Assembly (NCBI GenBank): GCA_038851755.1 | Contig: JAWCKR010000004.1 | Location: forward strand, 1-64,000 | DNA: 64,000 bases | Origin: Candidatus Hadarchaeales archaeon | GTDB taxonomy: Archaea > Hadarchaeota > Hadarchaeia > Hadarchaeales > WYZ-LMO6 | Reading direction: 5' to 3' | Shown: in pieces, positions 10,012-53,016 of the stretch | Layout of the letters: the number at the start of each line of letters is the position of its first letter | Numbering within the stretch: position 1 is the stretch's first letter | Program-made: the position numbers and the translations under genes | The notes under the pieces: generated by a model | What the model was told of the DNA's origin: nothing | The model's input: the letters and a program-made list of their open reading frames with translations, nothing else | Databases searched by the model: none

Positions 10012-10797
10012 ATGTCCGAGCTGGAGGTGGCCGTCTCCCTCGCCCTGGAGGCGGGGGAGGTCCTGAGGGAGGGCTTCAGGAAGGGCGGGTTCCTGGGGAT
10101 GCGCGGGACGGCGAAGGGCCTGACCACCCCCTACGACCTGAAGTCGGACAAGCTGCTGGTGGAGGGGCTCTCCTCCAGGTACCCCGGGCACAACCTGCTG
10201 ACGGAGGAAACGGGCCTGGTGGAAAGGGGGTCGGAGTTCACCTGGGTGGTGGACCCGCTGGACGGTACCACCAACTTCGCCTCCGGCAACCCCCTCTTCT
10301 GCGTCACCCTGGCCCTCCTCAGGAGGGGGGAGCCGCTCCTGGGGGTGACCTTCCTCCCCGTGCTCGGGGAGCTCTTCCTGGCGGAGAGGGGGAAGGGTGC
10401 CTTCCTGGAGAGGACGGACACCGGGGAGAGGGTCCCCATCCGCGTCTCCGAGGTGGAGGAGCTGAGCAGGGCCTACATGTATTCATGCGAGGGGAGCGAG
10501 ACGAACAGGGAGAGGACGGGCAGGATCGTGGGCACCCTCTACCCGAGGGTGAGGGACCTCAGGAAGCTGGGCTCGGCCGGGGTGGAAGCGGCCTGGGTGG
10601 CCTGCGGGAGGGGGGACGCCTACGCCGCCACCGCCCTCCAGCCCTGGGACGTGGCGGCCTCCGTCCTCCTGGTGGAGGAGGCGGGAGGGAGGGTGACGGA
10701 CTTCGGGGGGAGGGAGTGGAGGCCGGAGAGGATGGACCTGCTCTTCTCCAACGGAAGGCTGCACGGGAAGCTCGTGGGGCTGCTGGCGGGCCTCTGA
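10012..10797 (+). CDS. Inositol monophosphatase family protein
   Basis: TEE, WVVDPLDGTTNF, PWDVAA. Confidence 0.92.
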   Translation: MSELEVAVSLALEAGEVLREGFRKGGFLGMRGTAKGLTTPYDLKSDKLLVEGLSSRYPGHNLLTEETGLVERGSEFTWVVDPLDGTTNFASGNPLFCVTLALLRRGEPLLGVTFLPVLGELFLAERGKGAFLERTDTGERVPIRVSEVEELSRAYMYSCEGSETNRERTGRIVGTLYPRVRDLRKLGSAGVEAAWVACGRGDAYAATALQPWDVAASVLLVEEAGGRVTDFGGREWRPERMDLLFSNGRLHGKLVGLLAGL

Positions 10798-10833
10798 GGT
10801 TAGGCTAAAAGGGAGGAGGAAAAAGGGGGAAGG

Positions 10834-14998: not shown

Positions 14999-17281
14999 GT
15001 GGAGGAAACGGAAATCTGGACGGAGAAGTACCGCCCCAAGAAGCTCGAGGATATGGTGGGGCAGGCCGAGATCGTGGCCAGGCTCAAGAACTTCGTGAAG
15101 ACGAAGGCTTTGCCACATACCCTTTTCTCAGGGCCCCCCGGCACCGGCAAAACGACCGCCGCGCTCTGCCTGGCCAGGGAGCTCTTCGGGGAGGAATACT
15201 GGAGGCAGAACCTGCTCGAGCTCAACGCGAGCGTCGCACCTGAGACTCCCATCTTGGTTCGCATGCATGGGAGAATCAGGCGGACGAGTTTTAAGGAACT
15301 TGACAGGTTCTTTTTCCGGTTTCCGAACCAAAAATATGCGGATGCGCGAGGCCTCGAAATTCTTTCCCTGGATGAAAATTACAGGCCGTGCTTTAGGCCG
15401 GTGAGCCTGATCTCTAGGCATTGGGTGGATCAAATCGCGACGATAAGGTATGAAGGAGGAAAGATAAGGACGAGTCTGGACCACTCCGTGATGGTGATAA
15501 GCGGTGAAGGAAGGCTCGTTTCAAAGGCCGTGGCCGAGATAGGGCCCGGTGATTGTCTCATAACTTTCAGGGATGAAATTCCAGGAAGACCCGTCTGTGT
15601 GGACTTTGAGGCTCACAAACCGACGGAGTTCGTCCACCTGAGGAGCGGGGTCGTGAAAAACCCTAAGGTTAAGCGGATTCTTGAAAACAGGCGGCTGGAT
15701 GAGGGGCTAGCTTGGCTCTTCGGAATGTACCTCGCAGAGGGGTGCGTTTCCTTCCCTAGAGCAAACACAAGCGGAGTCACCATCTTTACGCTGGGGGCAC
15801 ACGAGACGGAGGAGCTGGGGGAACTCCAAAACATCGTAAGCGAGGAGCTGGATCTTCCGTATCGGCTTTCACTCGCCCCCTCAGGTTTCGATCGCGATAG
15901 GTTTTCCGCTTTCCACCTGAAGATTTTCAACACTCAACTGGCGAAGTTCCTGCAGCAGCACTTCTATGACGGGACCGGAGAAAGAAGTGCGAGAGAGAAG
16001 AGGATTCCGGGTTTCATGTATGAGGCACCCATAGGGGAAAGACTCAACTTTTTGAAGGGTTATATGGGAGATGCCGCGGGAAGGTGGGGAGTTCTTGTCA
16101 GGTATTCCTCGAGGTCCCAAGAAGGTTTAAAGGACGTAGCTTGGCTTGGCAGGATTTCCGGTCTCGATACTTCGGTTTATGAAAGGGAAACGAGGGTGAT
16201 TTGGAAGCTTCCTTCTTATTCCTATGTAAAAACGGATCTTCTCCCAGCCGAGCCCTTTATCAGGGCTTTCGAGAAGCTGAATGTCCCGTCCTTTAGATAT
16301 TTCATGAGGCACTCTCTCTATTACAGGAAAAGCAAACGAATCTCGAAAGAGGTGCTCAAGAACTTCTTCGAGGAGCATGGAATGAACGGGGGGAGGAGGC
16401 TTCAACTCCTGAGGAAGCTCCTCTACTCTCCCCTCTCCTCGGTTCTCGTGAGGAGCGTGGAAATCTCCCGATACGAGGGCTATGTTTACGACGTCTCCGT
16501 TCCCGGAACTCAGGTGTTCTGGGGGGGAACCACACCCGTTCTCCTACACAACAGCGATGAGAGGGGGATAGACACCATAAGGGAGAGGGTGAAGGACTAC
16601 GCCCGCACTATGCCGATAGGGGAGGTCCCGTACAAGATCGTGTTGCTGGACGAGGCCGATGCCCTCACCCCCGAAGCCCAGCAGGCCCTCAGAAGGACGA
16701 TGGAGATGTACTCCAGGAACTGCAGGTTCATCCTCGACTGCAACTACTCCAGCAGGATCATCGAGCCCATCCAGTCCAGGTGCGCTCTCTTCCGCTTCCG
16801 CAGGCTGACGGACGAGGAGGTGGAGGGGATGCTGAAAAAGATAGCGAGGGAGGAGGGTCTAACGCTGGATCCGAAGGCGGCGGAGGCCATCATCCGTGTG
16901 AGCGAGGGTGACCTCAGGAGGGCCATCAACCTCCTGCAGGCCGCCGCCGCGGTGAAGAAGCACGTGACGGAGAAGGCGGTCTACGAGGTGGCGGCAGCGG
17001 CCCACCCTGAGGAGGTGAGGGAGATGGTGGAGCTCGCCTTGAAGGGGGACTTCGAAGGGGCCAGGAAGAAGCTCTACGAGCTGCTCATCGACCGCGGTCT
17101 CTCCGGTGAGGACGTGCTTAACCAGGTGCACAGGGAAATCCTGAACCTGAAGATTCCGGAGAGAAAGAAGCTGGAGCTGGTGGAGAGGGTGGGGGAGTTC
17201 TCCTTCAGGATCACGGAAGGTGCGAACGAGAGGATCCAGCTGGAGGCCATGCTGGCCCAGTTCGCCCTGGTGGGTTCCTAG
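14999..17281 (+). CDS. rfcS: Replication factor C small subunit, intein-containing
   Basis: WTEKYRP, GPPGTGKT, LELNA|SDERGID, LDEAD, SRC. Confidence 0.96.
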   Translation: MEETEIWTEKYRPKKLEDMVGQAEIVARLKNFVKTKALPHTLFSGPPGTGKTTAALCLARELFGEEYWRQNLLELNASVAPETPILVRMHGRIRRTSFKELDRFFFRFPNQKYADARGLEILSLDENYRPCFRPVSLISRHWVDQIATIRYEGGKIRTSLDHSVMVISGEGRLVSKAVAEIGPGDCLITFRDEIPGRPVCVDFEAHKPTEFVHLRSGVVKNPKVKRILENRRLDEGLAWLFGMYLAEGCVSFPRANTSGVTIFTLGAHETEELGELQNIVSEELDLPYRLSLAPSGFDRDRFSAFHLKIFNTQLAKFLQQHFYDGTGERSAREKRIPGFMYEAPIGERLNFLKGYMGDAAGRWGVLVRYSSRSQEGLKDVAWLGRISGLDTSVYERETRVIWKLPSYSYVKTDLLPAEPFIRAFEKLNVPSFRYFMRHSLYYRKSKRISKEVLKNFFEEHGMNGGRRLQLLRKLLYSPLSSVLVRSVEISRYEGYVYDVSVPGTQVFWGGTTPVLLHNSDERGIDTIRERVKDYARTMPIGEVPYKIVLLDEADALTPEAQQALRRTMEMYSRNCRFILDCNYSSRIIEPIQSRCALFRFRRLTDEEVEGMLKKIAREEGLTLDPKAAEAIIRVSEGDLRRAINLLQAAAAVKKHVTEKAVYEVAAAAHPEEVREMVELALKGDFEGARKKLYELLIDRGLSGEDVLNQVHREILNLKIPERKKLELVERVGEFSFRITEGANERIQLEAMLAQFALVGS
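15230..16552 (+). mobile_element. Intein (441 aa) with LAGLIDADG homing endonuclease domain
   Basis: Interrupts LELNA/SDERG; begins SVAPETPILV, has TSLDHS (block B), GMYLAEG, VYDVSV, and ends LLHN followed by Ser; visibly more AT-rich than the exteins. Confidence 0.95.
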
Positions 17282-17703
17282 AGTTCCTTCTGGAGTTCCA
17301 CCCACTCCCCCTTCTTCCCCGTCTCCCTGAGACCCATCTTGCGCATGAGGGAGAGGGAGGGCTGGTTGGTCTCCAGCACCCTGGCCCTCACCCTGGGGAA
17401 GCGGTCGGAGCGGAACCTCTTCAGCTCCTCCTCCATCAGGAGCTCGCCCACCTTCTTCCTCCGGTGGTCGGGATGCACGCAGATCTGGTAGATCCAGGCC
17501 TCACCGCTCAGGCTGGGGAGGCCCACCACGAAGCCGGCCATCCCGGCGGGGCCCAGGGCGACTAGGAAGTACCTGGGGAAGCAGATGGCCAGGTATTCGT
17601 AGGTACCCTTCACGGAGGCCCTGAGGGGCTGGCAGAGCCTGGCCAGGGCCTCCACCTGTCCGGCATCGTCTTCGCTGGCTTCCCTCAGCTGGTACTCAAC
17701 CAA
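17278..17703 (-). CDS. GNAT-family N-acetyltransferase
   Basis: ICVHPDHRRKKVGELL, N..SL.L.RKMG; TTG start overlaps the comDE stop. Confidence 0.8.
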   Translation of the reverse strand: MVEYQLREASEDDAGQVEALARLCQPLRASVKGTYEYLAICFPRYFLVALGPAGMAGFVVGLPSLSGEAWIYQICVHPDHRRKKVGELLMEEELKRFRSDRFPRVRARVLETNQPSLSLMRKMGLRETGKKGEWVELQKEL

Positions 17704-18811
17704 CTCCCATCGCCCTCCTGAACCTCCTCTTAATTTCCTCTGGAGTGAGGGGTATGAGGCCCACCTCCTCATTCCCTGGTTTGACGGGAACGTGTATAAA
17801 ACAGGGACCTCTCTCTCCCAGGGCCTCTCTCAGCTCCCGGGGTGAGGAGGCCCTCCTGGTCCTGAGCCCGGCTGCCAGGGCAAGGAGTTCCAGGTCCACT
17901 TTGAGGTAAGAGTAAGTAAGCTGGTTCCCCGTGCTGCCCAGGGTGCCGTTGTCGAGGCATACCACGCGCAGGTTTTCCTTCCCCTCTGCCCCCAGTACAG
18001 GCAGAAGGCTGGAGCCCAGCACACTTCCATCGCCCTCCAGCACCACCACCCCCCTCCTCGTGGAGAGGGACATCCCCAGGCCCACCGAGGAGGCCTGGGT
18101 ATAGCTCCCCATCATGTAGAAGTTAAGGGGCCTGTCCCTCGCCTGGTAGAGCTCTCTGCTGGGGAAGCCCAGGTTCGAGACCAGTATCTCTTCCTCCTCC
18201 GCCTCTTCAGCCACCACCCTTATCGCCTCGTACCGCGTCATTTCTGGAGGGACAAAGACCTTCTCGTACCGGAGTTCCACCTTTCTCCTCCTTGGGGGAA
18301 AGGAGGGTTTAATCTCCGGTTCCCCCTCCCACAGCTTGGGGGACAGGAGGATTACCACGGGTCTCTCTTCCTCATAGGACTTCTTTATGGCCCTCCTCAG
18401 CTCCTCCAGCTCCGAGGCTTTCCTTATCCTGCAGGTCCTAATCTTCCAAGCCCTGAGGGCATCGGGGAGGTGGCGGTTGAAGGGGACCTGGGCCGGAATT
18501 TTTTCCCCGTGCACCCCTCTCCAGCTGGCCAGGATGGGGAGGGGAAGTCCGTAAGTGACGGAGAGGGAGAGGAGGGCGTTCAGGGAGTTGCCCAGGCCCG
18601 AACTCTGGATGAGGAGCGCGGGTCTCCCTCCAGCGAGATAGGACCCTCCCCCTATCCCCACGCCGTCCTCCTCCCTGTTCAGGAGGAGGGGATGAAGGGC
18701 GGGCCTGGAACAGAGGAGGTGGAGGAGGTAACGAATTTTCTCGCATGGCAGATAGGGAACGAGGTTAATCCTCTCCTCTTCCAGTATCTGCAGAATACTC
18801 TCAGCGAGCAG
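17696..18811 (-). CDS. comDE: Fused sulfopyruvate decarboxylase ComD-ComE (ThDP-dependent), probable CTG start
   Basis: LPCEKI, REEDGVGI, QSSGLGNS, SWRG..EKIPAQ, NFYMMGS, GDGS, LDNG..GSTGNQ. The conserved N-terminus extends 50 codons upstream of the ORF-track start. Confidence 0.88.
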   Translation of the reverse strand: MLAESILQILEEERINLVPYLPCEKIRYLLHLLCSRPALHPLLLNREEDGVGIGGGSYLAGGRPALLIQSSGLGNSLNALLSLSVTYGLPLPILASWRGVHGEKIPAQVPFNRHLPDALRAWKIRTCRIRKASELEELRRAIKKSYEEERPVVILLSPKLWEGEPEIKPSFPPRRRKVELRYEKVFVPPEMTRYEAIRVVAEEAEEEEILVSNLGFPSRELYQARDRPLNFYMMGSYTQASSVGLGMSLSTRRGVVVLEGDGSVLGSSLLPVLGAEGKENLRVVCLDNGTLGSTGNQLTYSYLKVDLELLALAAGLRTRRASSPRELREALGERGPCFIHVPVKPGNEEVGLIPLTPEEIKRRFRRAMGVG

Positions 18812-20075
18812 GTGGACACCACCCCTTCAGGACTTCCTTTACCTCTTCGAGTGAGGTATTTTGGTCCAGCACCAAAGAGGGCTCTAGGGGACAGAGAGAA
18901 AAATCTTCCCTAATTCTCTCGTAACCTCCCCCGCTCAAGTTGAGGAGCACCGTCTCTTCCCCTTTCACCTTTCCCTCCTCTACTGCCTGAAGGAGGGAAG
19001 CCACCGCCACGGAGGCGGCCGGGTCAAGGTCTATGCCTTCCTCTTCCAGCGTCAATTTCCAAGCCTCTAGGGCTTCCCTGTTGGAGACCCCGTACATCTC
19101 CCCCCCGCTCTCCCTCAGGGCCTCGTACACCCCCCCCTTCACGGAGTAGGGTGGTGAGCGGTTAGAGAGGATGGTTGCGTACATCTCCCTCTCCGCTTTT
19201 TCCGGAGAGGGGAGGTCGAGCTCGGGTATGATCTTGTTCCTGCCTTCCCTCCAGGCATGGAACATGGGGGCGAAGGGTAGGTTCTGGGAAAGTTGGAGCC
19301 TGGGGAGCCTTTTCCCGAAACTTCCGTCAGCCAAGAGTCTGAGGGAGGCCTCCAGCACGGCCAGGGCCCCCACCCCGCTCCCCACCGCTTGGAAATAGTG
19401 GTCTGGGAGCCTCCCCATCTCGAGCACAGCGCCGAGGAAGAGGGTGCCTATCCCGTCCCTCCTCCCCACGTTTCTGGCCCCTCCCTCCGCCACTGTACCT
19501 TCCAGCTTGGAGATCCTCTCCGCCCACTGGATGGCAGCCTGGTATCCCCCCTCTGCCCCAAGTAGCAGGAAGTGGGAAGGTTTTTCTCCCGGCACCCACA
19601 TCCTGGACAGATACGGGCGGGGGACCACTGCCACCACTCGGACGGAGGCCTCCTCCGAGAGGAGAGCAAAGGCTCTCGCCGTGTTACCCGCAGAGGCCAG
19701 TACCAGGATTTCCCTGCTCCTCTCCCTTGTCCTGGCCAGTACAGAGGAGGCCTCCAGCTCCTTGAAGGAGCAGCTCTTGAGCCTTCCCCCCCGTTCGGGC
19801 CAGTAACCGCTGAAGCTTATGTAGAGATCTCTGAGCCCCAGCGTTTTGGCCAGCCCCTCGCTCCGGTAGGTGAGGGCCTCTCCCTCTGTGGGCAGTGGGG
19901 AAGCACAGGGGAGCCATTCCAGGAACCTCCACATGCCTGGAAAGTTCCCCACCCTCAGTTTCCTCTCCCGATACTCGCTCCGGAGGAGGGCGTCATGTCC
20001 GCGGGGGCACTTGTTCTGAAGGCGATCTTCCATTGTGAGGCCGCACTCTAGACAGACGAGGGTGTGGTCCCCCAC
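18801..20075 (-). CDS. Cysteate synthase (threonine synthase-like PLP enzyme)
   Basis: SGYWPERGG...SFKELEA, ASAGNTARAF, EGGARNVGRRDG, YFQAVGSG, LSNRSPPY; adjacent to comDE. Confidence 0.9.
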   Translation of the reverse strand: MGDHTLVCLECGLTMEDRLQNKCPRGHDALLRSEYRERKLRVGNFPGMWRFLEWLPCASPLPTEGEALTYRSEGLAKTLGLRDLYISFSGYWPERGGRLKSCSFKELEASSVLARTRERSREILVLASAGNTARAFALLSEEASVRVVAVVPRPYLSRMWVPGEKPSHFLLLGAEGGYQAAIQWAERISKLEGTVAEGGARNVGRRDGIGTLFLGAVLEMGRLPDHYFQAVGSGVGALAVLEASLRLLADGSFGKRLPRLQLSQNLPFAPMFHAWREGRNKIIPELDLPSPEKAEREMYATILSNRSPPYSVKGGVYEALRESGGEMYGVSNREALEAWKLTLEEEGIDLDPAASVAVASLLQAVEEGKVKGEETVLLNLSGGGYERIREDFSLCPLEPSLVLDQNTSLEEVKEVLKGWCPPAR

Positions 20076-20078
20076 GCT

Positions 20079-21329
20079 TCATCCCCCCAGCGGCTGCAGG
20101 GGTTCGGAGAGCAGGAAACCTCCTTCCAGGATTTTCTTCTTGAGAAGCTCCGCCAGCTCCCTGGCTTTCCTCCTGCAGGATTGTCGGAGGGTGATGGGTA
20201 CCTCCCTACCTCCCACAGGCAGCGTTCCCAGTCTCCCACGGAAGGAGGAGGGACAGAGTTGTATGCAGGTCCCGCAGTCGAAGCACCTCTCCGGATCGAT
20301 TCCCACCCCTTTCCTGAAAGCGCCGGTGGGACATTTCTTCTCCACAGGGCAGGCTTTGTGTCCGGCGCAGGAGGATGGCAGGTACTCCACCTTCAGGTCG
20401 GTCCCCTTCCAGACCCTGGAGTAGCGGGTGCGCTCGAAGGGTATCCTGTCCCTTACGTCGGCGAGGGGGAGTTCTACCTCTTCGTCCCTCACCCGTAACT
20501 CCTCGAAGACCTCCCTGTCGAGGACGGGAATGGCCATGGCCACGGAGGTGATGCACTCAGGCCCGACCGAGGTGACAAAACCACCCATGAATCTAGGGAT
20601 CATTCCCTTCATGTCCGCCACCAGCGAGAGATTGGGTTTTTCTCTGGAGAAGCGTGTTCCCACCCCTATCACGTACCCGGGAGCCCCGTTGAGGAGAACC
20701 CTCGTTCCGGTCCCTATCGTCAGGAGCTTGGGATCGTTCTCCAGGGGGTTGAGTTCCCCGCACCCGCAGACGGAGGCCTCGGCCAGCCTGCCCCTGAGGC
20801 CCAGTACGGAGAAGATAGTCCTCATCCTCCCCCTCCCCCTGTGGACGAAGGCCATGTAGTTCCTGAAGGCGCTGCGGCTGGTGAAGATCCTTGCCAGCTC
20901 CATCTCCTCTAGCCTCACCTCTCTCCTGAACTTTTTTCCCCCGCCCCTTACCTCCACCTCCACTTCCCTCCCTTCCACCATTTCCCTGAAGAGGTGTCCT
21001 CCACCGTAGTTCCTGGGGGAAAGCTCGGAGCTTGAGGTGCCGTAGACTATGGCTTCCACCATCCCCAGTCGCTCGTTGGGACAGGGACCAGGGAAGGCCG
21101 GGACTCCGTTGAGCCAGACTTCCTCGGCCCTCTTGAACCTTCCCCTCTCAGCGACCGGGATGGAAAGGAGGGCGAAGGTGCCGGACATGAGGGCGCAGGT
21201 AGCGCAGGTGACTACATCCACCTCCTCAGGAGAAAGCCCGCTTTCAGCCGCCTCCTTGAACTCCTCAGCCGTCATAACCACGGCTTTTCCCTCTCTTATC
21301 CTGCGGTTGATCTCCTCCACCGTTTTCAT
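20079..21329 (-). CDS. Methanogenesis marker 16 metalloprotein (ComF-like, proposed CoM synthase) with C-terminal ferredoxin domain
   Basis: EIN.RI..G.AVVMTAEE, VDVVT, LNGVPAFPGPCPNERLG, YGGGHLFR, GCGELNPLENDP, C-terminal CxxCxxCxxxCP; first gene of the operon. Confidence 0.85.
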   Translation of the reverse strand: MKTVEEINRRIREGKAVVMTAEEFKEAAESGLSPEEVDVVTCATCALMSGTFALLSIPVAERGRFKRAEEVWLNGVPAFPGPCPNERLGMVEAIVYGTSSSELSPRNYGGGHLFREMVEGREVEVEVRGGGKKFRREVRLEEMELARIFTSRSAFRNYMAFVHRGRGRMRTIFSVLGLRGRLAEASVCGCGELNPLENDPKLLTIGTGTRVLLNGAPGYVIGVGTRFSREKPNLSLVADMKGMIPRFMGGFVTSVGPECITSVAMAIPVLDREVFEELRVRDEEVELPLADVRDRIPFERTRYSRVWKGTDLKVEYLPSSCAGHKACPVEKKCPTGAFRKGVGIDPERCFDCGTCIQLCPSSFRGRLGTLPVGGREVPITLRQSCRRKARELAELLKKKILEGGFLLSEPLQPLGG

Positions 21330-21411
21330 CGACTCTCCTTCACCCTCCGTTATAAAAAAGTGGGGACAGCGCTTTATTTTAGTGAAAGAAAAGGGGGAAA
21401 TACAGGGAAGA

Positions 21412-21429
21412 TTTTCCTTATAAGGAAAA
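21412..21429. promoter_or_regulatory. Perfect 18-bp palindrome TTTTCCTTATAAGGAAAA in the divergent intergenic region; candidate operator
   Basis: Identical to its reverse complement; lies between TATA-like boxes at ~21349-21358 (minus) and ~21441-21448 (plus). Confidence 0.6.
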
Positions 21430-21470
21430 CCATATCGACATTTTAAAAACAAAGAAGTTAAACCCTCAAG

Positions 21471-22892
21471 ATGGACGAGGAGCCGCTGGACCCCAGGCTG
21501 CCGAAATACCTTTCCTGCATGCAGTGTGGTTCATGCGCTTCCTCCTGCCCGGCCGTTTACGCCTACCACCAGGGTTTACTGGGTGAGGAGTTCAACCCCA
21601 TGAAGCTGGTGGGCCTCATGAGGCTCCACTCTTCCCCTGACGGCTTTCCCGTAGACAAGTGCTTTCACTGCTACACCTGCAAGTGGACCTGCAGGGCGGG
21701 CAACAGCGTCTCGGACCTCGTCAAGGTGCTGAGGGAGAGAAAGAGGGGGGTGTGCCAGGGCTCCCTTTACCGCTCCCTCTACGAGAAGGGACTGTGTCTG
21801 ACACCAGAAAGCTTCCGGTCCGGGGGATGGGAGGACTGGAGGGGCTTCGACAGAGTGCTGGAAGAAATGCCCCGCGTTCGCAGGGAGCTCGGTCTGGAGG
21901 GCCTCTACAGGAAGATACCTGAAGAGGCTCTTCAGCAGGTCCAGAGGCTCTTGGAGGTGAGCCCCTCTCTGAAGTTGAACGGGAAGAGATATGAAGGGGA
22001 GTGTAAAAGGCCCAATCCTCCAGGGGGGATCTATCTCTTCAAGAGCTGCGTGATGGACTCCCACTATCCAGGCGTCACTCTCTCCCTGAAGTATCTCCTG
22101 GAGAGGCTTAACGTGAGTTACCTGGACGACGAGAGGCAGTCCAGTTGTGGTGGTTTCGGTTACTACGCTGACGAGGTTTCCTTTCCCGCTCTCTTGGTTC
22201 TGAACGCTAGGAACTTCGCCCTAGCGGAGGAAGGGGGTTTCGGAAAGGTGGCTACGGTGTGCGTGACCTCCTACGGCATCCTCACCGAGTGCTGGGAACT
22301 CTTGGGCGGGAAACTGGGGGGAGAAGTGAACGAGCTGCTCAAGGGAATGGGAATGAGGTACAGGGGGAAAGTGGGGGTTTATCACCTCTCGGAGATCCTG
22401 CATGCGTTCAGGGGAAAGCTCCGGTCTCTGGTCAGTCACGGCCTCTCGGGCCTCCGGGTTGCCGTCCATCACGGTTGTCATTACACTAAGATGTTCAGGG
22501 AATACGCGACACCTAACTTGCTGGAAGAACTGGTGGCGGTGACGGGTGCAGAGGTGGTTGACTACGAGGAGAAGAACCTCTGCTGTGGTATGGGGTTCAG
22601 GCACACGTTGGAGAATAGAGAGCTGGTGAGATCCGTGGCTCTGAGGAAGTTGAGGGCCCTTAAAAACTCAGGGGCGAGGATAGTGGTGCACGCCTGTCCT
22701 GGCTGCCAGATGACGCTGGACAGGAACCAGAAGTACCTGGAAGAGAGGACGGGGGAGGAATTCGGGATGGTGCATATGAACTATGGGCAGCTCCTGGCCC
22801 TCTCTCTCGGCGCAGACCCCTGGAGGGTGGTGGGCATCCAGACCCACTCAGTTTCGCCCCAGCCTCTCCTGGAGGAACTCCGCCTGGCCTGA
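21471..22892 (+). CDS. Fused heterodisulfide reductase-like HdrC-HdrB protein
   Basis: N-terminal CMQCGSCASSCP and CFHCYTCKWTC; CCG-domain motifs KSC, SSCGG, CVTS, HHGCH, LCCG, CPGC. Confidence 0.85.
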   Translation: MDEEPLDPRLPKYLSCMQCGSCASSCPAVYAYHQGLLGEEFNPMKLVGLMRLHSSPDGFPVDKCFHCYTCKWTCRAGNSVSDLVKVLRERKRGVCQGSLYRSLYEKGLCLTPESFRSGGWEDWRGFDRVLEEMPRVRRELGLEGLYRKIPEEALQQVQRLLEVSPSLKLNGKRYEGECKRPNPPGGIYLFKSCVMDSHYPGVTLSLKYLLERLNVSYLDDERQSSCGGFGYYADEVSFPALLVLNARNFALAEEGGFGKVATVCVTSYGILTECWELLGGKLGGEVNELLKGMGMRYRGKVGVYHLSEILHAFRGKLRSLVSHGLSGLRVAVHHGCHYTKMFREYATPNLLEELVAVTGAEVVDYEEKNLCCGMGFRHTLENRELVRSVALRKLRALKNSGARIVVHACPGCQMTLDRNQKYLEERTGEEFGMVHMNYGQLLALSLGADPWRVVGIQTHSVSPQPLLEELRLA

Positions 22893-22917
22893 AGGTGTCC
22901 CAAGCATCTCCACCAGC

Positions 22918-23664
22918 CTACCTGAGCCTTTTGGGGATCTGGCCGGGGTGGTAGGAGAGGAGGGGACGGATTCCGGCCCTCTTCAGTCTCTCCTCCACGT
23001 GGGGGTAGAGGAAAACGTATTCCTCTTCCAGGTTCCTTGAGAGGGAGGGATCCAGCTCCTCCAGCCTGCGCTTCAGGTTCACCAGGGCCTCTCTGGGACT
23101 GAAGGAGAGCATCACGGCAGGATGGCAGGTCACCCCCTGGTCCAGCAGGTTCTTCAGGGCCGTCAGGGCCAGCTCGAAGGCCTCGGGCCTGGCCCCCGTG
23201 AGGCGGGAGAACTCCTGGGGATTGGTCCCCTTGAGGGAGACCCTGACGTGGAGGTTCTTGAACTCGGAGAGGTCCCTGGCGTACCTCTCGTCGATGAGCA
23301 TGCCGTTGGTCTCTAGGATGAAGGTGTAGGGGCTCTTCTCCACCAGCTCCAGCAGGCGGAGGAGGTGCTTCTTACCTATGGTGGGCTCGTTCCCGCTCAC
23401 CCTGAGCTTCTGGTACTGGAAACGCTTGGCGCAGGCCTGCAGCTCCCTGAAGACCTCCTCCGGGGAGTAGAACCTGCCCGTGGAGGGGTTATCCCTTGGG
23501 GCACCGCTCCAGCAGAACACGCACTTCAGGCAGCACCCCGAGCAGTCCGCGGTGGCGATGCCCCCGTACCAGTCCCCGGGCCTGGGAATCCTGTAGTACC
23601 TCCTCTTCTCCCCGTCCACCACCACCTTTTCCAGTTCCTGGGCCAGCTGGAGGGGGTCGTACAC
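22918..23664 (-). CDS. Radical SAM protein
   Basis: CCLKCVFCW (CxxxCxxC), SGNEP, LETNG. Confidence 0.88.
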   Translation of the reverse strand: MYDPLQLAQELEKVVVDGEKRRYYRIPRPGDWYGGIATADCSGCCLKCVFCWSGAPRDNPSTGRFYSPEEVFRELQACAKRFQYQKLRVSGNEPTIGKKHLLRLLELVEKSPYTFILETNGMLIDERYARDLSEFKNLHVRVSLKGTNPQEFSRLTGARPEAFELALTALKNLLDQGVTCHPAVMLSFSPREALVNLKRRLEELDPSLSRNLEEEYVFLYPHVEERLKRAGIRPLLSYHPGQIPKRLR

Positions 23665-23686
23665 CGTATAACCTACTCAGGGGGGG

Positions 23687-24265
23687 TTAAGGCTGGCGGT
23701 CCCCCCATCTTGGGGGAGCAACCGGTTCCCCCGTCTTTCGCCATCTACCCACTCCCCCCGCTACCTCCACCAGTGGGCTCTTCCCAGTTTCGGCAAGATA
23801 GGACCTCCATCCCCCCCTCCTGATTACTTCCTGTAAGTCCTTTCCCACCGCAGAGTGAAATCCCTCTATCTTCACCTTGGCGGGATTGGACACGTACACG
23901 TAACACTCCCTTCCGTCCTGAGTGCGGAACTCGAACTTCTCATAGAGATCCGGGACCCCTTCGTACTCGTCCAGACGTTTCAAAACCTCCTCCTTCGAGG
24001 AGCACTCTATCTCCAACAGCTTTCCCCAGGTGGCTCCGCCCTTGAAAGGGAAGAGCGTGTCGTACCTTCCTCTCGCCCCGTGCCTCAGCAGGATGAAGTC
24101 CAAGATGCGGGCATCCTGATACCGGAACCTAGCTGCTAGACCCCTCAACCTGGAGGAGACCGTCTGTGGATCGGTCAGGTTGCCATATACGAAAAAGAGT
24201 ACCCTCTCCTTTCCTTCCGCGGGTTTTCCGCATGTTTGGACGTTGTTTCCTACCACAGGTTTCAC
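23687..24265 (-). CDS. Gamma-glutamylcyclotransferase (AIG2-like) family protein
   Basis: FFVYGNL, LDEYEG..YE, YVY; start overlaps the topA stop. Confidence 0.7.
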   Translation of the reverse strand: MKPVVGNNVQTCGKPAEGKERVLFFVYGNLTDPQTVSSRLRGLAARFRYQDARILDFILLRHGARGRYDTLFPFKGGATWGKLLEIECSSKEEVLKRLDEYEGVPDLYEKFEFRTQDGRECYVYVSNPAKVKIEGFHSAVGKDLQEVIRRGGWRSYLAETGKSPLVEVAGGVGRWRKTGEPVAPPRWGDRQP

Positions 24266-51327: not shown

Positions 51328-51418
51328 CCCGCGGTAGCTCAGCCTGGTTAGAGCGGCCGGCTGTAGACCCAGGGCCGTTACCGGCATGTCGGGAGTTCAA
51401 ATCTCCCCCGCGGGACCA
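51328..51418 (+). tRNA. tRNA-Tyr(GTA) with a 13-nt intron at 37/38 (51367-51379); CCA encoded
   Basis: Acceptor stem CCCGCGG/CCGCGGG (C1:G72, A73), anticodon stem GCCGG/CCGGC, T-arm GGGAG-TTCAAAT-CTCCC. Confidence 0.93.
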
Positions 51419-52891: not shown

Positions 52892-53016
52892 TGGTTGGCG
52901 GCCATAGCGGCGGGGAAACACCCGGTCTCGTTCGATCCCGGAAGTTAAGCCCGCCAGCGATCTGGACTGTACTGTCCTGCGGAAGCGGACGGGAACTCCA
53001 GGACGCCGCCAACCAC
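52892..53016 (+). rRNA. rrf: 5S rRNA (stand-alone)
   Basis: GGCGGCCATAGCGGCGGGGAAACACCCGG...CCGGAAGTTAAGCCCGCC; terminal helix TGGTTGGCGGC/GCCGCCAACCA; TTAAATA box about 28 nt upstream, T-tract downstream. Confidence 0.93.

What the first reader, a model, noticed from the sequence alone, without database searches (positions are those of the whole stretch)
17278..22892. Coenzyme M biosynthesis operon paired with a divergent HdrCB fusion: a candidate CoM make-and-recycle module
Seen: four tightly coupled minus-strand genes (Mmp16/ComF-like, cysteate synthase, fused ComDE, GNAT) sit head-to-head with a single HdrC-HdrB fusion. The block looks more AT-rich in codon use than its neighbours (judged by eye). 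Known: cysteate synthase plus ComDE is the phosphoserine route to CoM in Methanosarcinales/Methanomicrobiales, and marker 16 has been proposed for the final sulfur insertion. Inference: this is an acquired, co-regulated unit that makes CoM and handles its disulfide or sulfur supply. No mcr, mtr or other methanogenesis genes are in the window, so the host may be an alkyl-CoM-reductase alkane oxidiser or may use CoM as a redox thiol.
Basis: partly seen in the sequence, partly recalled or inferred. Interest (0 to 1): 0.8.

Follow-up and report, generated by a model that had tools for sequence, protein, structure and literature searches.

The report
Coenzyme M operon with Hdr-like partner
An alkane-oxidising hot-spring archaeon carries an ordinary coenzyme M biosynthesis operon, but the unusual iron-sulfur protein encoded beside it sits next to the coenzyme M synthase gene in many unrelated archaea and may be a missing helper of that enzyme.

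Summary
Window 17278-22892 holds comF (marker 16), cysteate synthase, fused comDE and a GNAT gene on the minus strand. They are coupled by a 3-nt gap and by 11-nt and 8-nt overlaps. They lie head-to-head, across 141 bp, with one HdrC-HdrB fusion gene.

GC3 of the four core genes is 0.72-0.76, against a genome median of 0.85. That puts them only at the 8th-16th percentile.

The host is a 1.25-Mb Hadarchaeon of the same genus as WYZ-LMO6. It has two mcrA genes plus mcrB and mcrG, and a bona fide HdrB elsewhere.

The fusion is not a true HdrB or HdrD. It scores below the curated cut-offs, and its first CCG motif keeps only 3 of 5 cysteines across the family.

The fusion gene is directly linked to comF in 12 of 18 informative ANME-1-class genomes and 17 of 28 informative metagenome loci. 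The linkage holds beside both the cysteate route and the ComA/ComB route.

Best reading: a known coenzyme M operon plus an accessory thiol/disulfide iron-sulfur partner of the ComF step that I did not find described. "Acquired" is only partly supported. The recycling role is unproven.

The parts
17278..17703 (-). GNAT-family acetyltransferase, last gene of the operon. The likely TTG start at 17703 gives 141 aa. The longest ORF would start at ATG 17772.
   Evidence: PF00583, E 1.3e-11. The start overlaps the comDE stop by 8 nt. The gene also lies downstream of comDE in G061, which has different flanks, and in G063, L003 and L056. GC3 is 0.86, host-like.
17696..18811 (-). Fused sulfopyruvate decarboxylase ComDE, 371 aa if it starts at CTG 18811. 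No canonical start codon precedes the conserved N-terminal part.
   Evidence: TIGR03845 scores 180.9 against a cut-off of 147.95. TIGR03846 scores 210.1 against 221.5. Phosphonopyruvate decarboxylase TIGR03297 scores 166.1 against 312.5. Frame and start. No variant or indel appears there in contigs of 3 DNA runs.
18801..20075 (-). Cysteate synthase (PLP enzyme: phosphoserine + sulfite gives cysteate), 424 aa, GTG start.
   Evidence: TIGR03844 scores 531.4 bits against a cut-off of 324.9. Threonine synthase models score at most 71.5 bits, far below their cut-offs. PF00291.
20079..21329 (-). Methanogenesis marker 16 (ComF, coenzyme M synthase): a COG1900/HcyBio domain plus a C-terminal ferredoxin-like Cys cluster region. 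416 aa, ATG start at 21329.
   Evidence: TIGR03287 scores 486 bits against a cut-off of 364. PF01837, E 4.6e-96. Start from sequence and homologue alignment.
21330..21470 (.). 141-bp AT-rich divergent intergenic region, with TATA-like runs about 20-30 nt upstream of each start codon and a short palindrome.
   Evidence: Read directly. Blocks are conserved among three Hadarchaeal genomes in a 3-sequence alignment. Promoter function is inferred, not shown.
21471..22892 (+). HdrC-HdrB fusion-like iron-sulfur protein, 473 aa. It has 8 invariant ferredoxin-type Cys, a first CCG motif reduced to 3 Cys (C193, C226, C264; S225 and S267 replace the others) and a complete second CCG motif (C336, C371, C372, C409, C412).
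   Evidence: PF02754, E 1.3e-27. HdrB models NF041780 (244.6 against 450) and TIGR03288 (168.7 against 345) fall below their cut-offs. Alignment to solved HdrB chains. Family alignment of 20 sequences. Synteny with comF.

Best explanation
This is a chromosomal operon for coenzyme M (CoM) biosynthesis in an Acr/Mcr-bearing Hadarchaeon.

Pathway (established chemistry, assigned here by family scores):
- Cysteate synthase makes cysteate from phosphoserine and sulfite.
- An aminotransferase encoded elsewhere gives sulfopyruvate.
- ComDE decarboxylates sulfopyruvate to sulfoacetaldehyde.
- ComF (marker 16) replaces the aldehyde by a thiol, giving CoM.

The divergently transcribed gene encodes a member of a distinct family of HdrC-HdrB fusion proteins. 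This family travels with comF. It is not the cell's CoM-S-S-CoB reductase, because a bona fide HdrB is encoded elsewhere.

Its most likely role is inferred, not shown. I read it as an accessory redox partner of the ComF step. It would take electrons through its two [4Fe-4S] clusters to the one intact noncubane-cluster site. There it would reduce a sulfur-sulfur bond formed during thiolation, such as a carrier- or enzyme-bound persulfide or a mixed disulfide with CoM, and so release CoM-SH.

The com genes were probably gained by the ancestor of this Acr-bearing family along with the rest of its alkane metabolism.
For: 1. Gene identities pass or nearly pass curated cut-offs.

2. The host uses CoM. 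It has two mcrA genes 84% identical over the 293 residues of the partial copy, plus mcrB and mcrG.

3. The fusion family was found only in MCR/ACR lineages among the 40 confirmed loci of a scan of species-representative genomes. These were ANME-1/Methanophagales-type MAGs, Methanoliparia and Hadarchaea. The scan used two peptide patterns.

4. The fusion is adjacent to comF:
- In the class around ANME-1-THS, 33 of 79 genomes have the fusion, one copy each. Of these, 12 have comF immediately downstream, 6 are unlinked with room to see it, and 15 are cut by contig ends.
- In metagenome contigs, of 41 family loci, 17 are linked, 11 unlinked, 1 is a deletion scar and 12 are uninformative.
- The gap from the fusion's stop to the comF start is 0-28 nt in 12 of 13 co-directional loci, and 234 nt in one.

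5. The pair stays together while the rest changes:
- It is followed by cs(-comDE) in some loci, and by comA-comB(-comDE) in others (L027, L035, L058, L059, L071, L072, L074, L078).
- comDE lies upstream in L033.
- The arrangement is divergent in Hadarchaea.
- Linked and unlinked loci interleave in the tree, so linkage is ancestral within single-copy orthologues.

6. It is not a true Hdr:
- Its scores are below the cut-offs.
- First-motif positions 225 and 267 are Cys in only 2 of 20 family members each, while the second motif is intact in 19-20 of 20.
- Genuine HdrB (TIGR03288, 434 bits against 345) lies at C2:59970-60857.

7. There is precedent for single-CCG relatives acting on protein-bound sulfur. 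DsrK, TmcB and HmcF act on the DsrC trisulfide (PMC10861901, passages read).

8. The ComF reaction needs two electrons, its mechanism is unresolved, and other unexplained Fe-S genes co-localise with CoM genes in methanogens (PMC12068725, sections 6 and 12 read).

9. Acquisition:
- Marker 16 is above its cut-off in 5 of 66 genomes of the phylum.
- The Hadarchaeal fusion clade is sister to two ANME-1-class sequences, with support 97/87.
- GC3 is lower than in the flanks in this genome and in G064.
- PMC10811742 (passages read) argues that alkane metabolism in this family came by horizontal transfer.
Against: - There is no experimental or expression evidence.
- The fusion is not required for ComF. 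By my tally, 28 of the 51 comF-bearing genomes of the ANME-1 class had no fusion match.
- The sister genus (G061) has comF-cs-comDE-GNAT without it.
- Methanoliparia have both genes but unlinked; within the 10 kb flanks of loci L010 and L022 there is no comF.
- Six genomes and 11 metagenome loci are unlinked.
- Genomes within a class are related, so the adjacency counts are not independent events.
- Which of the two HdrB cluster sites binds CoM was not established here. The idea that the retained site is the CoM site is therefore unsupported.
- The GC3 deficit is modest, and absent relative to topA in G063.
- ComF, CS and ComDE identities to G061 (59, 57 and 52%) are only a little below topA (66%). 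This is compatible with vertical descent within the family.
Confidence: 0.55

Rival explanations
1. The fusion protein serves the sulfonate end of the pathway. It would make or handle the sulfite (or activated sulfur) that cysteate synthase or ComA needs, by oxidising bound sulfane sulfur as sulfur-oxidising Hdr-like systems do.
For: - No known sulfite source was found in this genome (93% complete). There was no match to PAPS_reduct, NIR_SIR or ATP-sulfurylase.
- The three other com-bearing or related genomes of the genus also lack PAPS_reduct and NIR_SIR.
- The sister genus G061 lacks the fusion and has a cysH (NF002537, 163 bits against 154) at the same position, immediately upstream of comF.
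- Both CoM routes that the fusion accompanies need sulfite.
- The source of sulfite for CoM is called unclear in PMC6286981 (passage read).
Against: - The conserved immediate neighbour is comF, not cs or comA.
- L035 has the fusion together with a TauE/SafE gene and a cysH-like gene in one cluster, so the two are not alternatives there.
- There is no complementary pattern with sulfite reductase in the ANME-1 class. NIR_SIR is present in 17 of 33 fusion-bearing genomes and in 14 of 46 without the fusion (my tally).
- Known sulfur-oxidising Hdr-like systems need HdrA and lipoate-binding partners (recalled, not tested).
- The cysH-versus-fusion contrast rests on one lineage against one.
Confidence: 0.15
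2. The fusion would be a soluble, HdrD-like disulfide reductase that keeps CoM reduced (CoM-S-S-CoB, CoM-S-S-CoM or CoM-protein disulfides). It would be co-regulated with CoM synthesis but would not take part in it.
For: - It is homologous to HdrB over residues 189-470, with E 1e-39 to 1e-43 to solved HdrB chains.
- It has a complete HdrC-like part.
- It shares an intergenic region with comF.
- In M. acetivorans, CoM starvation raises cs, comDE and hdrABC transcripts together (PMC12068725, section 9 passage).
Against: - The two complete CCG motifs are called a hallmark of heterodisulfide reductases (PMC13261682 and PMC10861901 passages). They are not both present.
- Its scores are under both HdrB cut-offs.
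- A bona fide HdrB and further Hdr-like genes are present elsewhere.
- Tight operonic coupling to comF in particular is not predicted by a general recycling role.
Confidence: 0.15
3. There is no functional link. The adjacency would be inherited gene order within the ANME-1 class, copied once into Hadarchaea, and the fusion would be an electron-transfer protein of energy metabolism.
For: - Many genomes have the two genes unlinked, or have comF without the fusion.
- The counts come from related genomes.
- ANME genomes are rich in unusual Hdr-like genes (PMC9012536, passages read).
Against: - The adjacency survives at least four different arrangements, and a switch of the whole upstream pathway from cs to comA/comB.
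- Gaps of 0-28 nt indicate co-transcription.
- The family was found only in CoM-using lineages.
Confidence: 0.12

Closest known systems
Methanosarcina-type CoM biosynthesis cluster (cysteate synthase, ComDE, MMP16/ComF; M. acetivorans, PMC12068725)
   Same: It has the same three enzymes and the same cysteate route. Physical clustering of MMP16 with sulfoacetaldehyde genes is already described in that paper (section 6 read).
   Different: - This cluster has a translationally coupled GNAT gene and the HdrC-HdrB fusion neighbour.
- The paper's main text names an ATPase, a Ni-GTPase and a COG2000 Fe-S protein as unexplained neighbours. It names no Hdr-like protein.
- Its supplementary neighbourhood figure could not be seen.
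HdrB/HdrC of soluble heterodisulfide reductase, and the HdrD fusion of HdrDE
   Same: - The domain order matches HdrD: a 2x[4Fe-4S] part followed by two CCG domains.
- It aligns to solved HdrB over about 280 residues and to HdrC models over residues 14-163.
   Different: - The first CCG motif keeps 3 of 5 Cys, family-wide.
- It scores below the curated cut-offs.
- No hdrA or hdrE is adjacent.
- It is encoded next to comF rather than next to energy-metabolism genes.
DsrK / TmcB / HmcF (HdrD relatives with a single CCG motif that reduce the DsrC trisulfide)
   Same: It has one complete noncubane-cluster motif plus residual Cys from the other. By analogy, it is expected to act on a protein- or carrier-bound sulfur-sulfur bond.
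   Different: - In DsrK the first motif is complete and the second is lost (PMC10861901 passage). Here it is the reverse.
- It has no membrane partner.
- It had no significant match to the DsrK model among the ten listed for this protein.
L-aspartate semialdehyde sulfurtransferase (COG1900a with a NIL-ferredoxin partner, MA1821/MA1822)
   Same: Like ComF, it is a COG1900 enzyme that turns an aldehyde into a thiol. It depends on a separate iron-sulfur or ferredoxin partner. This is the model for 'ComF plus an Fe-S helper'.
   Different: - The partner there is a small ferredoxin-domain protein, not an Hdr-like one.
- This genome has its own L-ASST-like gene on contig C18: 141.6 bits to the marker-16 model, below the cut-off.

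Membership tests
Cysteate synthase (TIGR03844) | Scores above the curated equivalog cut-off, and clearly better than threonine synthase models. | tested here: met
   531.4 bits against 324.9. The best ThrC model scores 71.5 against 303.
Cysteate synthase (TIGR03844) | Catalyses phosphoserine + sulfite to cysteate. | not testable with these tools
   Needs an enzyme assay.
Sulfopyruvate decarboxylase ComDE | The alpha (ComD) part is above its cut-off. | tested here: met
   TIGR03845 scores 180.9 against 147.95 on the full open frame. It scored only 137.4 on the ORF truncated at GTG 18661.
Sulfopyruvate decarboxylase ComDE | The beta (ComE) part is above its cut-off, and better than phosphonopyruvate decarboxylase. 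| tested here: inconclusive
   TIGR03846 scores 210.1 against 221.5, just under. TIGR03297 scores 166.1 against 312.5.
Methanogenesis marker 16 / ComF (TIGR03287) | Scores above the cut-off over the full model length. The related L-ASST type scores far lower. | tested here: met
   486 bits against 364, model positions 1-390 of 391. The genome's second COG1900 gene scores 141.6 bits.
Methanogenesis marker 16 / ComF (TIGR03287) | Co-occurs with sulfoacetaldehyde-forming genes. | tested here: met
   It is adjacent to cs and comDE.
CoB-CoM heterodisulfide reductase catalytic subunit (HdrB / HdrD) | Scores above a curated HdrB cut-off. | tested here: not met
   NF041780 scores 244.6 against 450. 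TIGR03288 scores 168.7 against 345.15. The genome's true HdrB scores 434.4.
CoB-CoM heterodisulfide reductase catalytic subunit (HdrB / HdrD) | Two complete five-cysteine CCG motifs (CXnCCGXnCXXC). | tested here: not met
   The first motif has Ser at the positions of the first C of 'CC' and the last C of 'CXXC'. Those positions are Cys in 2 of 20 family members each. The second motif is complete.
CoB-CoM heterodisulfide reductase catalytic subunit (HdrB / HdrD) | An HdrC-type part with two [4Fe-4S] binding motifs. | tested here: met
   Eight Cys (16, 19, 22, 26, 64, 67, 70, 74) are invariant in 20 of 20 sequences. HdrC model NF041890 matches residues 14-163 at 52.8 bits, below its cut-off of 270.
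CoB-CoM heterodisulfide reductase catalytic subunit (HdrB / HdrD) | Reduces CoM-S-S-CoB. | not testable with these tools
   Needs an enzyme assay.
Acr-bearing Hadarchaea (GTDB family WYZ-LMO6 = Ca. Cerberiarchaeaceae, per PMC10811742) | Same family or genus as WYZ-LMO6, and presence of mcrA-like genes. | tested here: met
   - G062 carries the same place as the WYZ-LMO6 contig (L041 and L047).
- G062 is listed as the same genus as the window's genome.
- The genome has two mcrA matches.
- Whether the enzymes are long-chain Acr was not tested. The best solved matches are canonical MCR.

The most novel reading that the evidence does not exclude
The HdrC-HdrB fusion would be the missing reductase component of archaeal coenzyme M synthase. 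ComF would build the C-S bond through a persulfide or mixed-disulfide intermediate. This protein, with one intact CCG motif, would cleave that bond with electrons from ferredoxin and release CoM-SH. That would define a new biosynthetic function for the heterodisulfide-reductase fold. It would also explain why ComF alone has been hard to establish biochemically.
Probability: 0.3. Interest if true: 0.75.

Novelty: new variant of a known kind. Interest (0 to 1): 0.55.

Why it matters
The last step of coenzyme M (CoM) biosynthesis is still mechanistically open. ComF was confirmed genetically only in 2025, and its electron and sulfur donors are unknown (PMC12068725). A conserved, operon-coupled iron-sulfur partner gives a concrete candidate to test in that step.

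It would also mark a branch of the HdrB family as biosynthetic rather than bioenergetic. This matters when Hdr-like genes are counted in ANME and alkane-oxidiser genomes to infer energy metabolism.

For the organism, the operon shows that this Hadarchaeon can make its own CoM. A close relative with two mcrA genes (WYZ-LMO6) carries only a deletion scar at this locus and may depend on external CoM.

Tried and rejected
- Complex prediction of ComF with the fusion protein, using alignments A2 and A1, gave no verdict. The score was 0.00 against a mark of 0.32. I take it neither for nor against binding.
- The search for sequencing runs listed no RNA holder. It listed four DNA runs of one hot-spring study, so nothing can be said on expression.
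- Laying three of those runs showed contigs covering the stretch without indels and without a variant at the proposed CTG start. They are contigs from one study, and one run may be the source sample, so this is not independent support.
- Donor inference from ComF homologues failed. Identities sit on a 50-59% plateau across Methanophagales, Jordarchaeales, Hodarchaeota, Methanofastidiosia, Methanoregula and Methanofollis.
- I tested for a complementary pattern between the fusion and sulfite reductase in the ANME-1 class and found none.
- The protein atlas returned only generic CCG/ferredoxin clusters.
- I considered and rejected that unlinked loci are paralogues. Each genome has one copy, and linked and unlinked loci interleave in the tree.
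- I considered and rejected a frameshift as the cause of the missing comDE start. The same frame and position are kept in three genomes.
- I dropped three distant loci (L084, L086, L087; 32-36% identity) from the metagenome tally. L060, L062, L076 and L094 duplicate or mirror loci of the genome scan.
- Literature searches found no paper that links MMP16/ComF with an HdrB-like protein (passages). Supplements were closed. The supplementary neighbourhood figure of PMC12068725 may show this gene.

Full report
WHAT IS THERE

The stretch 17278-22892 holds five genes. On the minus strand, in order of transcription, they are:
- Methanogenesis marker 16 (ComF): TIGR03287, 486 bits against a cut-off of 364.
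- Cysteate synthase: TIGR03844, 531 bits against 325. The best threonine synthase model scores 71.5 against 303.
- A fused sulfopyruvate decarboxylase ComDE.
- A GNAT acetyltransferase.

On the plus strand lies one 473-aa protein. Its N-terminal part is HdrC-like with 2x[4Fe-4S] motifs, and it has two CCG domains.

Three gene starts needed correction:
- comF begins at ATG 21329 and is 416 aa. This matches the N-termini of 16 homologues.
- comDE's conserved N-terminal part lies upstream of the first canonical start. The frame is open back to a TGA at 18829-18827. The likely initiator is CTG 18811. It is TTG at that place in relative G063, and G061 has an ATG at the equivalent position. Read over the full frame, the ComD model passes its cut-off (180.9 against 147.95). 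ComE falls just short (210.1 against 221.5). Phosphonopyruvate decarboxylase is far below its cut-off (166 against 312.5).
- GNAT most likely starts at TTG 17703.

With these starts the junctions are a 3-nt gap, an 11-nt overlap and an 8-nt overlap. The head-to-head intergenic region is 141 bp. It is AT-rich, with TATA-like runs 20-30 nt before each start, and is partly conserved in three genomes.

COMPOSITION

GC3 of comDE, cs, comF and the fusion is 0.75, 0.74, 0.72 and 0.76. The genome median is 0.85 over 1026 called ORFs. That is the 8th-16th percentile.

- 163 of 901 genes of at least 150 aa lie below 0.78.
- There are 11 runs of four or more such genes, against 1.2 expected after shuffling.
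- In G064 the same four genes are again lower than their flanks (0.84-0.86 against 0.88-0.96).
- In G063 they equal topA (0.62) and are lower than GNAT and RFC.
- GNAT is host-like (0.86).

THE HOST

The window is contig C4 of a 1.25-Mb, 26-contig genome that is 93% complete.
- The closest named protein hit is from a Hadarchaeales MAG.
- The genome shares its genus with the record of Hadesarchaea WYZ-LMO6. PMC10811742 (passages read) equates the GTDB family WYZ-LMO6 with the Acr-bearing Ca. Cerberiarchaeaceae.
- The genome has two mcrA-like genes. They are 84% identical over the 293 residues of the partial copy. It also has mcrB and mcrG.
- A bona fide HdrB (TIGR03288, 434 bits against 345) and other Hdr-like genes lie on contig C2.

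I did not test whether the enzymes are long-chain Acr. The best solved matches are canonical MCR.

THE Hdr-LIKE GENE

It is a relative of HdrB and HdrC but not a member of the heterodisulfide reductase equivalogs.
- Its scores are below the cut-offs: 244.6 against 450, and 168.7 against 345.
- In the alignment to solved HdrB chains, the first CCG motif reads S-C instead of C-C, and CxxS instead of CxxC.
- In a 20-member family alignment these two positions are Cys in 2 of 20 members each. C193, C226 and C264 are invariant. The eight ferredoxin Cys are invariant. The second CCG motif is kept in 19-20 of 20.
- Two complete motifs are described as the hallmark of HdrB and HdrD. Single-motif relatives such as DsrK act on the protein-bound DsrC trisulfide (PMC10861901 and PMC13261682, passages read).

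LINKAGE

Species-representative genomes. A pattern scan gave 40 loci, all from ANME-1/Methanophagales-type MAGs, Methanoliparia or Hadarchaea. In 13 of them (L005, L008, L013, L015, L017, L026, L027, L029, L032, L033, L035, L039, L040), comF follows the fusion on the same strand. L003 repeats the window's divergent layout. L004 has cs directly after the fusion.

ANME-1 class. In the class around ANME-1-THS, 33 of 79 genomes have the fusion, one copy each, and 51 of 79 have comF. By my comparison of the coordinates:
- 12 genomes have the two genes adjacent.
- 6 have them unlinked with enough sequence to tell.
- 15 are cut by contig ends.

Metagenome contigs. Of 41 family loci, 17 are linked, 11 are unlinked, 1 is a deletion scar and 12 are uninformative. 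Three distant loci were dropped.

Spacing. The gaps from the fusion's stop to the comF start are 0-28 nt in 12 of 13 co-directional loci.

The pair is kept while its surroundings change:
- It is followed by cs and comDE in some lineages.
- It is followed by comA-comB(-comDE) in others.
- comDE lies upstream in L033.
- The arrangement is divergent in Hadarchaea.

So the constant partner is comF, not cysteate synthase.

Limits of the linkage:
- Methanoliparia have both genes unlinked.
- 28 comF-bearing genomes of the class had no fusion match.
- The sister genus G061 has comF-cs-comDE-GNAT without the fusion.

The fusion is therefore an accessory, not an obligatory part.

HOW IT PROBABLY WORKS

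The enzymatic steps of the operon follow established knowledge of the cysteate route and of MMP16 as ComF (PMC12068725).

For the fusion, I infer an electron-input and sulfur-sulfur bond-cleaving partner of the ComF step. The grounds are:
- the tight coupling to comF;
- the two-electron demand of converting an aldehyde to a thiol;
- the intact second noncubane-cluster motif;
- the DsrK precedent;

None of this is shown experimentally. The complex prediction gave no verdict.

RIVALS

Sulfite supply is a real alternative.
- In favour: this genome, and the other genomes of its genus searched, showed no PAPS reductase or sulfite reductase match; this genome, the only one searched for it, also showed no ATP sulfurylase match. 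G061 has cysH exactly where the fusion would be.
- Against: L035 has the fusion together with cysH-like and TauE genes. In the ANME-1 class the fusion does not complement sulfite reductase: 17 of 33 against 14 of 46.

Pure inherited synteny is weakened by the rearrangements that keep the pair together.

WAS IT ACQUIRED?

In favour:
- Marker 16 passes its cut-off in 5 of 66 genomes of the phylum. Four are in this family and one is in another.
- The fused gene is present in three of the six family genomes searched: G000, G063 and G064.
- It is also present in a 68-71% identical lineage seen only in metagenomes, with the same synteny (L055, L056).
- The Hadarchaeal clade is sister to two ANME-1-class sequences, with support 97/87. 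The root is at the midpoint only.

These points, together with the published case for horizontal gain of alkane metabolism in the family, favour an old acquisition.

Against a recent island:
- Synteny is conserved.
- The GC3 shift is modest.
- The com proteins are 52-59% identical to those of G061, against 66% for topA.

NOVELTY

The operon is a known kind in a known kind of host.

What I did not find in print is the comF-linked HdrC-HdrB fusion family with a reduced first CCG motif. Four literature searches and passages of eight papers were checked. Supplements were closed.

I rate the finding a new variant of a known kind and of moderate interest. It offers a testable candidate for an open step in cofactor biosynthesis.

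Noticed in passing
window 14999-17281 (+): The replication factor C small subunit gene carries an intein of about 437 aa between residues 78 and 516 (Pfam Intein_splicing). The orthologues in L003, G063, WYZ-LMO6 and L056 lack it. The insertion explains the gene's low GC3 (0.73).
   Followed up: partly
L041, L047 (G062 = WYZ-LMO6) and L094; corresponds to window 17975-22022 and 22103-22920: There is a deletion scar in a close relative. Between GNAT and the radical SAM gene, only about 273 bp of the comDE 3' end and 82 bp of the fusion gene remain. That genome still has two mcrA genes and no marker 16 above cut-off (88% complete), so it may depend on external coenzyme M.
   Followed up: partly
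window 18809-18811 (-): comDE has no ATG, GTG or TTG start before its conserved N-terminal part. A CTG is the likely initiator in this genome and in L003, and a TTG in G063. No variant is seen at this place in contigs of three DNA runs.
   Followed up: partly
L049 (G061:C18) 10056-10799 (-): In the sister genus the operon is cysH-comF-cs-comDE-GNAT. A PAPS reductase (NF002537, above cut-off) stands where the fusion gene stands here. The flanks differ (a luciferase-like gene instead of RFC), so GNAT travels with the operon.
   Followed up: partly
whole genome G000 and relatives G062-G065: No match was found to the PAPS reductase or sulfite reductase (NIR_SIR) families in G000 or these relatives, nor to ATP sulfurylase in G000, the only genome searched for it. 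Cysteate synthase needs sulfite, and its source in this genus is unexplained.
   Followed up: partly
L035 10580-12359: An ANME-1-class cluster runs fusion-comF-comA-comB. It is followed by a TauE/SafE sulfite-exporter-family gene and a cysH-like gene (27% identical to the G061 cysH).
   Followed up: no
G064 and G065 (same genus): No mcrA match was found in G064 (93% complete), although it has the full com cluster with the fusion. G065 (92% complete) has neither mcrA nor marker 16. The cause could be loss or missing contigs.
   Followed up: no
window 22918-24265 (-): A 248-aa radical SAM gene without a SPASM domain and a GGACT/AIG2-like gene follow the fusion gene convergently. Both are conserved at this place in all relatives, including the scar-bearing one. 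GGACT has the lowest GC3 of the neighbourhood (0.67).
   Followed up: no
window 51328-51418 (+) and 52894-53014 (+): A 91-nt tRNA was called by ARAGORN with a four-base anticodon, so it probably contains an intron. Rfam tRNA scores 55.8 bits. A 5S rRNA gene scores 98 bits.
   Followed up: no
L013 (contig labelled Nitrosotalea sp.): This contig carries an ANME-1-type fusion-comF-cs cluster that nests among Methanophagales in the tree. It is probably mis-binned.
   Followed up: no
G000 C12:34728-36578 and C20:1-882: There are two mcrA paralogues, 84% identical over the 293 aa of the partial copy. The complete one is 616 aa, with an N-terminal extension of about 50 aa relative to solved McrA chains. 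The second is cut by a contig end.
   Followed up: partly
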